A DNA stretch of 64,000 bases from Escherichia coli (lineage in GTDB: Bacteria > Pseudomonadota > Gammaproteobacteria > Enterobacterales > Enterobacteriaceae): the NCBI RefSeq assembly GCF_003018235.1, contig NZ_CP027437.1; one strand, given 5' to 3'. Positions 60,001 through 64,000 of the stretch are shown piece by piece. The position numbers are program-made. Position 1 is the stretch's first letter. Each line of letters opens with the position of its first letter.

Positions 60001-63000
60001 TTAACAAAGGTTTTACCAAGAGAGTTGCGATTTTTTAATGTTGTTCTTGTACTTGTTGTCTTTTCGTTTTCGCTTCCTCATTTTTTTATTGCTCCAGCTG
60101 CTGATTATCGTTATCTGCATTTTTCAGTTGTTTGTGCAGTGGTTCAATTAGGAATGTTTTTGGGCTTTTTCTTTATGAGATTGTATAAAAGAGTGTATTT
60201 TGGGGCGATTAAATTGTTGGGTTAAGGGTGTTCTTCTGTTATCACATATTTTATCTATATATTTATAGGTTTATTAGATTGGGTAATTAAGTGTTGTCTG
60301 TATCTTGGTGCTCTTGTTGAATATGTTTTTTAGCCCAGCTCTAATTGTCTGTGCTTTTTTGCCTAAATTATTATTGATTTTTACTTTTTCCTTAATATTA
60401 ACTTAATAAATGAGGTCATATAGTAATGAAGTAAATCTGAATTGTGCCGTCGGTCATTGACATTTCATCAACTCAGACGTTACAACTTTTAATACATGTC
60501 ATGATGATGCAAACATGATGAGCAAAAGTTAACCCTGAGAAAATTAAATGAAAATCACTATTTCTGGTACCGGATATGTTGGCCTGTCAAATGGTATTCT
60601 GATTGCTCAGAGCCACGAAGTGGTGGCACTGGATATCATCCAGACGAAAATCGAGATGCTGAATCAGAAACAATCCCCGATTGTGGATAAAGAGATCGAA
60701 GAGTATTTGGCGACTAGGTCGCTAAACTTCCGTGCAACGACTGATAAGTGTGATGCCTACCGAGATGCGGACTACGTTATTATCGCGACACCAACTGATT
60801 ATGATCCAAAGACTAATTACTTTAATACCTCAAGTGTCGAGTCTGTTATTCGCGACGTGGTTGCAATTAATCCAGATGCAGTAATGGTAATTAAGTCTAC
60901 CATCCCAGTAGGTTTTACTAATTCTATCAAAGAAAAACTGGGCACCGAAAATATTTTCTTTTCCCCAGAATTCCTGCGTGAGGGTAAAGCACTATATGAC
61001 AACCTTTACCCATCTCGTATTGTCATTGGTGAGCGTTCAGAGCGCGCCGAGCGTTTTGCAGCTCTGCTACAGGAAGGGGCACTAAAGAAAGATATTCCGA
61101 CCCTATTTACCGACTCGACCGAAGCCGAAGCTATTAAGCTGTTCGCTAATACCTATCTGGCGCTGCGTATAGCCTACTTTAATGAGCTGGACAGCTACGC
61201 TGAAACTCTAGGCCTGAATTCACTACAGATAATTGAAGGGGTATGCTTGGATCCGCGAATAGGAAACCACTATAACAACCCGTCATTTGGCTACGGCGGT
61301 TACTGTCTGCCTAAGGATACCAAGCAGTTGCTGTCCAACTATGAATCGGTACCGAATAACTTAATCGGTGCGATCGTCGAAGCTAATCGCACTCGTAAAG
61401 ACTTTATTGCCGACTCTATTCTCGCGCGCAAGCCTAAGGTGGTGGGTGTTTATCGCCTGATTATGAAGTCGGGTTCGGATAACTTCCGCGCGTCCTCCAT
61501 TCAGGGGATCATGAAGCGTATTAAGGCCAAGGGTATCACGGTAATTATTTATGAACCGGTGATGCAGGAAGATGAGTTTTTTAACTCCCGTGTGGTACGT
61601 GACTTCGAAGCCTTTAAGCTGGAGGCAGACGTGATTATCTCCAACCGTATGGCAGAAGAGCTGGTGGATGTTGGAGATAAAGTCTATACCCGTGATCTGT
61701 TTGGTAATGATTAAACGTTAGTTTTTGTGTCGTTCTCGGCGGTGCTTCGCTTGGCCGGGCTATGTTAGAAAAAGCCCTCATCTTGGACTGCACCCCAAAA
61801 GTTGGACACCCAACTGATTAAGGTGCAGTTTTTTATGGCAAAGCCAAAATATTCTCTCGAAACCAGATTAGCTGTCGTTACTCATTATCTTGCCGGACAC
61901 GATGGCGCACGTCGTACCGCTGAACGTTTTGGTGTTGAAGAAACATCAGTGCGACGCAGGGTAAGAGCCTGGCAACTCCACGGTATTGATGGTATTACAT
62001 GGAAAAATGACCGCCATTCTCCTGAGTTTCGACTGACGGTTGTCCTGAAGTCTCTGAGTGAAGAACTTACCATGCGCGAAGCCGCCGCACGGTTTAATAT
62101 CTCCAATGAATCCGTTGTCCGGCACTGGGTGAAGGTTTACAAAGACACTAGTGAAGCAGGACTTCTGAACATAAAACCAGGCCGGAGCAAGGACATGACA
62201 AAACCTCTAAAAACACCTCCACTTACGATGAAGAATTGGAAAAGTTATCTCCCGAAGAACTGCGGGCGGAACTCCGTTACCTTCGCGCAGAGAATGCCTA
62301 TCTAAAAAAGCTGAAGGCCTTAGTTCAAAGCGAGAAAAACGGCAGAAAGCCCGGATAATCAGTGAGCTAAGGCTGAAGCATGCGCTCGGTGATCTTCTGC
62401 GTGCCGCGGGTATGTCCCGCAGTACGTGGTATCACAATATGAATGCCCTGAAGCGAGTGGACAGGCATGCCGGACTGAAAGACAAATCAGAGAGATTTAT
62501 CATTATCACAAAGGGCATTATGGCTACCGCAGAATCACGCTCTCACTGAGAAAATAGGGCGTGTTGGTAAACCATAAAACAGTGCAGCGGCTGATGGCAG
62601 AGCTGTCGCTCCGCTCTGTGATAAGGGTGAAGAAATATCGTTCCTGGAAAGGGGAAGTAGGCAAAGCTGCACCCAATATCCTGATCCGGAACTTTGGTGC
62701 AACGAAGTCCAACGAAAAATGGGTGACGGATGTTACAGAGTTCTCGGTACAGGGTAAAAAGCTGTACCTGTCGACAGTTCTCGATCTGTTTAACCGGGAG
62801 ATTATCTCCTACAGCCTGTCAGAAAGGCTGGTGATGGAGATGATTAATACGATGCTGCACGATGCATTCTCAGTGTTTGGACCGGAGGATGCACCGTTGC
62901 TGCACACGGTTCAGGGCTGGCAATATCGAATGGCAGGCTATCAGGCAACGTTAAAGGCCCATGGAATGACACAAAGTATGTCGCGCAAGGGAAACTGTCT

Positions 63001-64000
63001 GGATAACGCAGTGATGGAGAACTTCTTCGGCGCACTGAAATCGGAGTGTTTTTACCTGAACAGGTTTAGCGATCTGAATGAACTGAGGAAAGCGATAGAG
63101 GACTATATCCATTATTATAACAACGAGCGGATCAGCCTGAAATTAAAAGGCCTGAGTCCGGTAGAATACCGAACTCAGGCCCTGAAAGCCGCTTAACATG
63201 AACTGTCCAACTTTATGGGGGCAGTCCATCCATGAGGGCTTTTTTTGTGCACAGAAAATCCCCTGCTAGGCTGAGGGGGGGGCCGGAAAGCTTTCAGCTT
63301 TGAGCCAGTTATTAAAACCCTTTTGATTTGTTAAAACACCTTGCGGTCTGGCAACTGCAAGTGTCAAACAAGAAATCAAAAGGGGGGGCTAATGGGGAAC
63401 AAAGAGAGCTTAGCGCACACCCGATTGAACGATAAATCTCACATATTTTTTGCGCCAAAATACCGAAGACAGGTGGTAAGGTAATCCCCCCGAAAAAACC
63501 GGTGCGATGTCCGGGTTAGGAAAGAGGATTACTGATGTCTTTTGCATAAATTCTCAATCACCGTCGTCAGGTCTAGGTTCTGATCCTGCAACAGCACCAG
63601 CAGGTGATACATCAAGTCCGATGCCTCGTTGGTCAGTTCGAAGCGGTCATGTACTGTGGCGGCCAGTGCTGTTTCCACGCCTTCTTCGCCCACTTTCTGC
63701 GCAATGCGTTTGGTGCCGCTGGCATACAGTTTGGCGGTATAGGAGGTTTCCGGATCGGCAGATTTACGTTCGGCGAGCAGTTGTTCCAGTTGATACAGGA
63801 ACAGCCATTGGTGAGCGGTGTCGCCGAAGCAGCTGCTGGTGCCTTTGTGGCAGGTCGGGCCGATGGGATTCGCCAGCAACAGTAACGTGTCGTTGTCGCA
63901 GTCCGGCGTAATATTTACTACGTTGAGGAAATTGCCCGACGTTTCGCCTTTGGTCCACAGTCGCTGTTTAGTGCGCGAGAAGAAGGTGACTTTGCCGCTT

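What the first reader, a model, noticed from the sequence alone, without database searches (positions are those of the whole stretch)
61784..63228. IS150-like IS3-family element with multiple inactivating lesions
The orfA N-terminus and its leucine-zipper C-terminus are in different frames. The orfB N-terminal region requires a further frame change, and an in-frame TAG precedes the catalytic core. The programmed-frameshift heptamer A AAA AAG is still present. The copy therefore looks like a non-autonomous fossil rather than an active IS, unless these are sequence errors.
Basis: seen in the sequence. Interest (0 to 1): 0.45.

Follow-up and report, generated by a model that had tools for sequence, protein, structure and literature searches.

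The report
Dead IS150-group insertion sequence copy
This is an ordinary, already annotated, mutationally dead copy of a jumping gene (an IS3-family insertion sequence) lodged in the terminator hairpin after the E. coli ugd gene; the only mildly interesting point is that its relatives nearly always land in such hairpins.

Summary
Window 61784..63228 is a 1445-bp IS3-family, IS150-group element with 25-bp TG...CA inverted repeats.

Intact 1447-bp relatives (96% nt) sit on Citrobacter braakii and Pantoea ananatis plasmids. Against them, the window copy has:
- a 1-bp deletion at 62226 that separates the OrfA helix-turn-helix part from its leucine zipper;
- a 1-bp deletion in the A-run 62484-62486, in the orfB N-terminal region;
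- CAG>TAG at 62555-62557;

The A AAA AAG heptamer (62304-62310) is present, but the shifted orfA frame stops on top of it.

These are not sequencing errors. The same 1445 bp occurs at the same ugd-hisIE site in four other complete E. coli genomes at 100% and in one at 99.9%. RefSeq already calls it a pseudogene ("frameshifted; internal stop").

The closest named relative is ISKpn1 (80% nt, 78% aa). IS150 is 53% aa identical.

The element sits in the loop of the ugd intrinsic terminator, next to a truncated IS200 copy. Relatives show the same terminator-loop preference.

Verdict: a real, ordinary fossil IS of low interest.

The parts
61784..63228 (+). Whole 1445-bp IS3-family / IS150-group element (degenerate copy)
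   Evidence: It is 96.5% and 96.0% identical over its full length to intact 1447-bp elements on C. braakii and P. ananatis plasmids. It is 100% identical in 4 complete E. coli genomes.
61784..61808 (+). Left inverted repeat (IRL), TGGACTGCACCCCAAAAGTTGGACA
   Evidence: Identical to the IRL of the intact copies and of ISKpn1. The exact 25-mer was found at 35 places in the genome collection, most of them Enterobacterales.
63204..63228 (+). Right inverted repeat (IRR), TGTCCAACTTTATGGGGGCAGTCCA
   Evidence: It matches the IRL at 20 of 25 positions. It has one difference from the intact copies, G for T at 63221.
61785..61831 (+). Left-end hairpin (IRL nt 2-11 paired with nt 39-48, covering the GGTG Shine-Dalgarno-like motif) followed by a T6 run, just before the orfA ATG
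   Evidence: RNAfold gives -24.1 kcal/mol. The hairpin is predicted in seven of the eight clade copies folded; the eighth, the 93% E. coli copy, folds into a different left-end hairpin. It is absent from IS150. Its function (blocking read-through or occluding the RBS) is inferred.
61835..62305 (+). Frameshifted orfA' (156 codons): two HTH domains intact in frame, then an out-of-frame tail ending at TAA 62303-62305
   Evidence: ORF list. Pfam HTH_28 8.8e-18 and HTH_23 7.5e-9. Carries W>R at 61958.
62226..62226 (+). Lesion 1: 1-bp deletion (one C of CC) in orfA, upstream of the leucine zipper
   Evidence: Alignment to three relatives, all of which have the extra C.
62236..62358 (+). Orphaned OrfA C-terminal leucine-zipper segment (EELRAELRYLRAENAYLKKLKALV...) with the native orfA stop at 62356-62358
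   Evidence: ORF list. Colinear with the OrfA C-terminus of the intact reference.
62304..62310 (+). Programmed -1 frameshift heptamer A AAA AAG, retained but unreachable in the correct frame
   Evidence: The N-terminal frame stops at 62303-62305, on top of the heptamer.
62310..62379 (+). Predicted frameshift-stimulating stem (12-bp core 62316-62327 / 62363-62374), starting 5 nt after the heptamer and enclosing the orfA stop
   Evidence: RNAfold gives -27.2 kcal/mol for the 97-nt stretch 62304-62400 that was folded. There are no differences from the intact copies between 62281 and 62383. The stimulatory function is inferred by analogy with IS150 and IS911.
62484..62486 (+). Lesion 2: 1-bp deletion in an A-run (A4>A3) in the orfB N-terminal region
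62555..62557 (+). Lesion 3: nonsense codon TAG (CAG/Gln in the intact copies)
62561..63196 (+). orfB catalytic-core ORF remnant (211 aa, rve / DDE domain)
   Evidence: NCBIfam transpos_IS3 1.2e-78 at 265 bits; Pfam rve 2.3e-21 and rve_2 8.8e-25.
62909..62911 (+).
   Evidence: IS150 has HSDQGWQY at the equivalent place. Assignment as the catalytic Asp rests on established knowledge of IS3/retroviral-integrase DDE motifs.
61769..61783 (+). Left half of the ugd intrinsic terminator: A5 run, 5' arm GCCCTCAT, and loop nt CT (left copy of the imperfect target duplication TCT)
   Evidence: The reconstructed empty site folds at -22.5 kcal/mol. An IS-free orthologous hairpin is seen downstream of ugd in strain PSS-15.
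63229..63246 (+). Right half of the ugd terminator: TCC (right copy of the imperfect duplication), 3' arm ATGAGGGC, T7 run
63247..63476 (+). Neighbouring element, not part of the IS3-family copy: a 5' fragment (~230 bp) of an IS200C-like element inserted right after the terminator T-run and truncated after about 28 tnpA codons
   Evidence: 91% identical to IS200C copies. The left boundary was defined by aligning three IS200C copies from different loci. PGAP calls it an 'IS200/IS605 family transposase, incomplete'. Rfam STnc490 hit at 63257-63382, 111.9 bits.

Best explanation
Window 61784..63228 is a mutationally inactivated, immobile copy of an IS3-family, IS150-group insertion sequence. It belongs to the ISKpn1-like sub-clade.

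Shown: its ancestor was a 1447-bp element encoding OrfA (two HTH domains plus a leucine zipper). By -1 ribosomal slippage at A AAA AAG, that element also made an OrfAB DDE transposase. Shown: the window copy sits in the loop of the rho-independent terminator hairpin downstream of ugd, in an O89/O101/O162-type O-antigen locus.

Inferred: it transposed there with a 3-bp duplication, which now reads TCT/TCC.

Shown: the copy has since accumulated:
- two 1-bp deletions;
- a nonsense codon;
- an Asp>Val change at a catalytic DDE residue;
- 16 other amino-acid changes (17 with the nonsense codon).

No transposase can therefore be made from it. Ribosomes that start at the orfA ATG terminate at a TAA overlapping the slippery heptamer, so the retained frameshift signal is vestigial.

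The copy is fixed at this one site in a small set of E. coli strains that share the locus. Inferred: it is carried passively, with no function of its own.
For: - Full-length alignment to intact 1447-bp copies (96.5% and 96.0% nt) pinpoints the lesions.
- Family assignment: NCBIfam transpos_IS3 at 265 bits (cut-off 160), plus Pfam rve and HTH_28.
- Subgroup: the intact relative's OrfB is 63% identical to IS150 InsK, against 32% to IS3 InsF and 27% to IS2 InsD. Its OrfAB is 78% identical to ISKpn1.
- Relaxed constraint: 17 nonsynonymous to 10 synonymous window-specific changes, against 17:30 between the two intact copies (Fisher p=0.03).
- Not an assembly error: the 1445 bp are identical in four other complete genomes and 99.9% identical in a fifth, at the same ugd-hisIE position. 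PGAP flags the copy 'frameshifted; internal stop'.
- No mobility seen: among 5426 E. coli genomes, the only copies above 99% identity are these five, and all lie at this locus.
- Insertion site: the two flanks reconstitute an A5-GCCCTCA-loop-TGAGGGC-T7 terminator at -22.5 kcal/mol. A related ugd locus (strain PSS-15) has the uninterrupted hairpin.
Against: - The inverted repeats are essentially intact, with one change in the IRR. Mobilisation in trans by a related transposase is therefore not formally excluded.
- The 156-codon orfA' still encodes two HTH domains and could in principle be expressed.
- The target duplication is imperfect (TCT versus TCC). The insertion event itself is inferred from relatives that have clean 3-4-bp duplications.
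- The nonsynonymous/synonymous contrast is only modestly significant (p=0.03).
- No expression or transposition data exist.
Confidence: 0.93

Rival explanations
1. The element is an intact, active IS, and the frame breaks and the TAG are sequencing or assembly errors.
For: Both indels are single-base losses in short homopolymer contexts (CC>C and A4>A3), which is a typical error signature.
Against: - The identical 1445-bp sequence occurs in four other independently sequenced complete genomes, and a fifth is 99.9% identical.
- The nonsense change, the D>V change and 25 other substitutions are not homopolymer errors.
- PGAP reports the same pseudogene in RefSeq.
Confidence: 0.01
2. The copy is non-autonomous but still mobile. 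Its intact ends would be recognised by a transposase supplied in trans from an intact relative, for example one arriving on a plasmid, so it would behave like a long MITE.
For: - The IRL is identical to that of the intact copies, and the IRR differs at 1 of 25 positions.
- Intact 96%-identical copies exist on mobilisable or conjugative enterobacterial plasmids.
Against: - All five near-identical copies lie at one locus.
- No copy of the 96% type was found in 5426 E. coli genomes. The only other full-length hits are about 93% identical, and the one inspected is itself a pseudogene.
- IS3-family transposases act preferentially in cis (established knowledge, not tested here).
Confidence: 0.04
3. 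The remnant has been co-opted. The truncated HTH-only OrfA' would act as a DNA-binding regulator, or the element's left-end hairpin plus T-run would substitute for the disrupted ugd terminator and be retained for that reason.
For: - A 156-codon ORF with two recognisable HTH domains survives.
- A -24 kcal/mol hairpin followed by T6 lies 2-51 nt inside the element, directly after the broken ugd terminator.
Against: - The orfA' region up to the deletion at 62226 carries 6 nonsynonymous and 3 synonymous window-specific changes, including W>R in the first HTH, so there is no sign of purifying selection.
- The left-end hairpin is a generic feature of the clade, not something specific to this copy.
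- There are no expression data.
Confidence: 0.02

Closest known systems
ISKpn1 (IS3 family, IS150 group; Klebsiella pneumoniae)
   Same: - The 1445-bp length and an identical 25-bp left inverted repeat.
- The same orfA/orfB layout, with A AAA AAG at the equivalent position.
- 80% nt identity to the window copy, and 78% aa identity to the intact relative's OrfAB.
- Like ISKpn1, the element sits in the loop of a GC-rich hairpin.
   Different: - The identity is below the usual isoform thresholds (recalled from memory as about 90% nt or 95% aa), so this is a distinct IS species.
- ISKpn1 is reported to target K. pneumoniae palindromic units (PMC1525189), and one chromosomal copy seen here does sit in such a unit (L039).
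- The window copy and its closer relatives sit instead in A-run/T-run intrinsic-terminator hairpins.
- The window copy is dead.
IS1397 (IS3 family; E. coli; inserts into loops of palindromic units / REPs)
   Same: It has the same reported behaviour: insertion into the loop of an extragenic GC-rich palindrome (PMC1525189 and its Additional file 13).
   Different: No IS1397 reference sequence was available, so identity is untested. A junction query, built from the published CFT073 flank plus the 5' end of the 93%-identical 1434-bp E. coli element, found no joined match. The window's target is a terminator, not a REP/PU.
IS150 (E. coli K-12 insJ/insK)
   Same: - Similar size: 1443 bp against 1445-1447 bp.
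- Similar TG...CA inverted repeats.
- A 173-aa two-HTH plus leucine-zipper OrfA.
- An A AAA AAG -1 frameshift.
- OrfB 63% and OrfAB 53% identical.
   Different: It is only a subgroup-level relative. IS150 lacks the clade's left-end hairpin plus T-run, and the K-12 copy is not in a terminator loop.
Unnamed intact 1447-bp IS3-family element on C. braakii plasmid NZ_CP077406.1 (WP_142478931.1) and P. ananatis plasmid NZ_CP099537.1
   Same: 96.5% and 96.0% nt identity over the full length. Both are inserted in terminator-hairpin loops, with clean 3-bp duplications TAA and CAT.
   Different: They have an intact OrfA, OrfAB and DDE triad. They are 2 bp longer, which corresponds to the two bases lost in the window copy.

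Membership tests
IS3 family | Element of about 1.2-1.55 kb bounded by imperfect inverted repeats ending 5'-TG...CA-3' | tested here: met
   1445 bp; IRL TGGACTGCA... and IRR ...TGCCCCCATAAAGTTGGACA (reverse complement); 20 of 25 positions match.
IS3 family | Two overlapping ORFs in phases 0 and -1, joined by programmed -1 frameshifting at an A6G-type slippery site | tested here: met
   This is present in the intact relatives, with the heptamer at element nt 522 and an OrfAB of 454 aa. In the window the heptamer is retained at 62304-62310, and the 0/-1 relation is recovered once the two lost bases are restored.
IS3 family | OrfB with an rve / DDE catalytic domain scoring above the family cut-off | tested here: met
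   NCBIfam NF033516 transpos_IS3 at 265 bits (cut-off 160) and Pfam rve at 76 bits, for 62561..63193.
IS3 family | 3-4-bp direct target duplication | tested here: inconclusive
   The window flanks read TCT and TCC, matching at 2 of 3 positions. Relatives have clean duplications: TAA, CAT and TTT (3 bp), and TCGT and TCTG (4 bp).
IS150 group of the IS3 family | Transposase closer to IS150 than to the type elements of other subgroups | tested here: met
   OrfB is 63% identical to InsK, against 32% to IS3 InsF and 27% to IS2 InsD (the latter two partial sequences). OrfA aligns end to end with InsJ at 37% but not with InsE or InsC. The IS51 and IS407 groups were not compared.
ISKpn1 (same IS species or isoform) | Isoform-level identity to the reference (roughly >90% nt or >95% aa, an ISfinder convention recalled from memory) | tested here: not met
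   80% nt for the window copy and 78% aa for the intact relative.
IS1397 / ISKpn1 behavioural class (PU/REP-loop-specific IS) | Insertion into the loop of a palindromic unit (REP) | tested here: not met
   The target is the ugd intrinsic terminator (A5, 7-8-bp GC-rich stem, T7), not a REP/PU. It does share the feature of insertion into a hairpin loop.
IS1397 (same IS species) | Sequence identity to the IS1397 reference | not testable with these tools
   No IS1397 sequence was held, the primary papers are not in the library, and the junction search was negative.
Autonomous (active) insertion sequence | Uninterrupted orfA and orfAB with a complete D, D, E triad | tested here: not met
   Two frameshifting deletions, TAG at 62555, and Asp>Val at 62909-62911.

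The most novel reading that the evidence does not exclude
The window copy itself is not novel, but its clade may be.

ISKpn1-like IS150-group elements that share the IRL TGGACTGCACCCCAAAAGTTGGACA appear to insert specifically into the loop of rho-independent terminator hairpins. The orientation is fixed: the IRL lies next to the A-run arm and the IRR next to the arm followed by the T-run.

These elements also carry their own hairpin plus T-run just inside the IRL. That structure could replace the terminator they split.

This would extend the REP/PU-loop specificity known for IS1397 and ISKpn1 to a much more general class of genomic hairpins. It would also explain why the window's terminator collected two different ISs: this one in the loop, and IS200 immediately after the T-run.
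Probability: 0.35. Interest if true: 0.45.

Novelty: already known. Interest (0 to 1): 0.12.

Why it matters
It matters little in itself. A decayed IS copy between ugd and hisIE is routine genome debris, and RefSeq already annotates it as a pseudogene. It has three modest uses:

- It is a stable marker for this O89/O101/O162-type O-antigen locus lineage. The same fossil is shared by strains that differ by other IS insertions.
- It is a clean worked example of a retained frameshift heptamer that says nothing about activity.
- It is a pointer to an apparent terminator-loop target preference in the ISKpn1-like clade. If that preference is confirmed and undescribed, it would interest people studying IS target choice and 3'-UTR evolution.

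Tried and rejected
- I first read the flanking hairpin as the IS200 left-end hairpin, because the right flank matched IS200C from its first base. Aligning three IS200C copies from different loci showed that IS200C homology starts only after the T-run and that each copy sits behind a different host terminator. An IS-free ugd locus has the hairpin. The hairpin therefore belongs to the host.
- I tried to decide whether the 93%-identical 1434-bp E. coli elements are IS1397. The primary IS1397 and ISKpn1 papers are not held. A junction query made from the published CFT073 flank plus the element's 5' end gave no joined hit. This remains unresolved.
- An Rfam scan of 61600..63600 found no curated frameshift element for this IS. 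It returned only STnc490, in the IS200 fragment.
- Two literature searches for IS3-family insertion into terminator hairpins returned nothing on point. This is weak evidence of novelty, because most relevant journals are not in the library.
- Searching for the right inverted repeat in the 35 genome-collection loci mostly failed. Many hits are contig ends, solo left ends or mini-remnants. The target-site statistic therefore rests mainly on left flanks.
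Full report
**What is there.** Window 61784..63228 (1445 bp) is bounded by imperfect 25-bp inverted repeats. They start TGGACTG... and end ...CAGTCCA.
- a 156-codon ORF from ATG 61835 to TAA 62303-62305;
- a 40-codon leucine-zipper ORF at 62236..62358 in another frame;
- short ORFs at 62412..62549 and 62426..62557;
- a 211-codon ORF at 62561..63196.

The last of these scores 265 bits against NCBIfam transpos_IS3 (cut-off 160) and 2.3e-21 against Pfam rve. The first carries HTH_28 and HTH_23 domains. The feature is real and is an IS3-family element.

Megablast found intact 1447-bp relatives on a Citrobacter braakii plasmid (96.5% nt) and a Pantoea ananatis plasmid (96.0% nt). 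Both are annotated as uninterrupted IS3-family transposases with a programmed frameshift. The intact element has these features:
- a 174-aa OrfA with two HTH domains and a C-terminal L-L-L-V heptad zipper;
- the heptamer A AAA AAG at element nt 522;
- a 454-aa OrfAB.

Against these copies, the window copy shows the following lesions:
- It has lost one C of a CC pair at 62226, so OrfA is cut off from its zipper.
- It has lost one A of an A4 run at 62484-62486, in the orfB N-terminal region.
- It has CAG>TAG at 62555-62557.
- It has GAT>GTT at 62909-62911. This turns HTDQGWQY into HTVQGWQY and removes the second Asp of the DDE triad. IS150 has HSDQGWQY at the same place.
- It has W>R at 61958 in the first HTH.

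In all there are 17 nonsynonymous, 10 synonymous and 1 non-coding window-specific substitutions. The two intact copies differ from each other by 17 nonsynonymous and 30 synonymous changes (Fisher p=0.03). That contrast fits decay after inactivation.

The heptamer survives at 62304-62310. No base differs from the intact copies between 62281 and 62383, so the predicted downstream stem is also untouched; the 97-nt stretch 62304-62400 that contains it folds at -27.2 kcal/mol. The signal is nevertheless vestigial, because the shifted N-terminal frame ends at a TAA (62303-62305) overlapping the heptamer.

**Not a sequencing artefact.** The same 1445 bp occur at 100% identity in four other complete E. 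coli genomes:
- NCTC10973;
- three SCPM-O-B strains.

A fifth genome is 99.9% identical. In every case the copy lies between ugd and hisIE. RefSeq/PGAP already annotates it as 'IS3 family transposase; frameshifted; internal stop'.

One carrier genome, SCPM-O-B-9504, differs from the window by ISKpn26 and IS4::IS3 insertions elsewhere in the locus. The fossil therefore predates the divergence of these strains.

Among 5426 E. coli genomes there is no intact copy of this type. The only other full-length hits are about 93% identical 1434-bp elements, and the one inspected is also a pseudogene.

**Family placement.**
- The intact relative's OrfB is 63% identical to IS150 InsK. It is 32% identical to IS3 InsF and 27% to IS2 InsD.
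- Its OrfA aligns end to end with IS150 InsJ, but not with InsE or InsC.
- The nearest named element is ISKpn1, which shares the 1445-bp length and an identical IRL. It is 80% nt identical to the window copy, and its OrfAB is 78% identical to that of the intact relative.

'IS150-like' is thus correct at subgroup level, and 'ISKpn1-like' is more precise. Whether the 93% E. coli elements are IS1397 could not be settled.

**Where it sits.** The locus is an O89/O101/O162-type wzm/wzt O-antigen cluster: galF ... gnd ... ugd, then hisIE on the other strand, with no wzzB.

The IS flanks read aaaaaGCCCTCATct | IS | tccATGAGGGCttttttt. Once joined, they form an intrinsic-terminator hairpin at -22.5 kcal/mol, with the insertion point in the loop. 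A related ugd locus without any IS (strain PSS-15) has the uninterrupted hairpin aaaaaGCCCTCATaaATGAGGttttttt. The hairpin is therefore the host's ugd terminator. The 3-bp duplication is imperfect, TCT against TCC.

Directly after the T-run, at about 63247..63476, lies the first ~230 bp of an IS200C-like element. It is 91% identical to IS200C and is truncated after about 28 tnpA codons. Three full IS200C copies from other loci likewise begin just after a host sequence ending in a T-run; in two of the three (downstream of deaD and pheP) that sequence is a clear hairpin plus T-run. The fragment retains a complete match to Rfam STnc490, the Hfq-binding RNA derived from the IS200 5' region (111.9 bits against a gathering score of 56).

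**Target preference of the clade (side observation).** Relatives with both flanks available were inspected by eye. Nine of them, counting the window copy, sit in the loop of an A-run / GC-stem / T-run hairpin, with 3- or 4-bp duplications:
- the window copy;
- two plasmid copies at 96% identity;
- three plasmid copies at 85%, 81% and 78% identity;
- three genomic copies, L017, L020 and L043.

An exact-match scan for the IRL returned 35 places in the genome collection, most of them in Enterobacterales. Of 38 unique left flanks, 23 meet a strict test for an A-run plus GC-rich half-stem ending 1-9 nt before the junction. The same test is met at 3.6% of background positions in those loci, and several failures are near misses.

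A chromosomal K. pneumoniae copy carrying the ISKpn1 IRL (L039) sits instead in a GC-rich palindrome without A- or T-runs. That fits the published palindromic-unit specificity of ISKpn1.

Seven of the eight clade copies folded also carry a hairpin inside the left end. IRL nt 2-11 pair with nt 39-48, covering the GGTG ribosome-binding motif, and T5-T6 follows. The hairpin folds at -21 to -24 kcal/mol and is absent from IS150. It could stop or silence read-through from the gene whose terminator was split; that is inference. Two literature searches did not turn up a description of terminator-loop targeting by IS3-family elements, but the library lacks most of the relevant journals.

**Verdict.** There is a fourth knockout at a catalytic residue, constraint is relaxed, and the copy is fixed at one site. 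The sequence-error alternative is excluded.

The object is an ordinary, already annotated IS pseudogene, so interest is low. The only lead worth a note is the apparent terminator-loop targeting of its active relatives.

Noticed in passing
window 63247..63476 (STnc490 hit 63257..63382): A truncated IS200C-like element: the first ~230 bp only, 91% identical to IS200C, inserted immediately after the T-run of the ugd terminator. It retains a complete, high-scoring match to Rfam STnc490, the Hfq-binding RNA from the IS200 5' region (111.9 bits). The transposase gene is cut after about 28 codons.
   Followed up: partly
window 61769..61783 + 63229..63246; loci L001, L002, L009, L010, L011, L017, L020, L043: ISKpn1-like elements sharing this IRL sit in the loops of intrinsic-terminator-like hairpins (A-run, GC stem, T-run), always with the IRL next to the A-run arm. 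23 of 38 unique left flanks pass a strict half-terminator test, against 3.6% of background positions. A chromosomal K. pneumoniae copy with the same IRL (L039) sits instead in a palindromic unit.
   Followed up: partly
window 61785..61834: A conserved hairpin inside the IS left end: IRL nt 2-11 pair with nt 39-48, which include the GGTG ribosome-binding motif. T6 and the orfA ATG follow. It is predicted in seven of the eight clade copies folded (the 93% E. coli copy folds differently) and is absent from IS150. It looks like a built-in terminator or RBS occluder against read-through from outside.
   Followed up: partly
L031 ~6834-6858 (Escherichia sp. E1V33); L049 and L025: Tiny remnants of the same IS in other genomes. 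One is a solo 25-bp IRL left inside a terminator loop (aaaaaaGCCGGAtga-IRL-TCCGGCttttttt). Others are 49-bp mini-elements (TGGACTGCACC...GGTGCAGTCCA). Several loci carry solo ~53-bp left ends that break off just at or after the orfA ATG.
   Followed up: no
window ~49363..49377 and ~53872..53886, versus L014: The window lacks the ISKpn26 insertion and the IS4::IS3 nested insertion present in the otherwise near-identical locus of strain SCPM-O-B-9504. The O-antigen region of this lineage is an IS hot spot, and the window comes from a different strain than that genome.
   Followed up: partly
window 20126..49377 versus 49363..64000: Identity to SCPM-O-B-9504 is 96.5-98.6% across the colanic-acid / galF / wzm-wzt part. 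It jumps to 99.9% from about 49.4 kb to the end of the window. This suggests a recombination boundary inside the O-antigen locus.
   Followed up: no
window 61715..63528 (between ugd and hisIE): There is no wzzB (chain-length regulator) gene between ugd and hisIE. The interval holds only the dead IS3-family copy, the IS200 fragment and about 50 bp of spacer. This fits an ABC-transporter (wzm/wzt) O-antigen pathway. Whether the ISs had any part in the loss of wzzB is unknown.
   Followed up: no
E. coli genome collection (hits H15-H25): About 1000 E. coli genomes carry a partial relative covering roughly the first 790 bp. The listed examples are about 94% identical and annotated as a 'helix-turn-helix domain-containing protein'; most records' best matches fall in the 80-90% identity band. 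This looks like a widespread truncated orfA-side remnant of a related IS at other loci.
   Followed up: no
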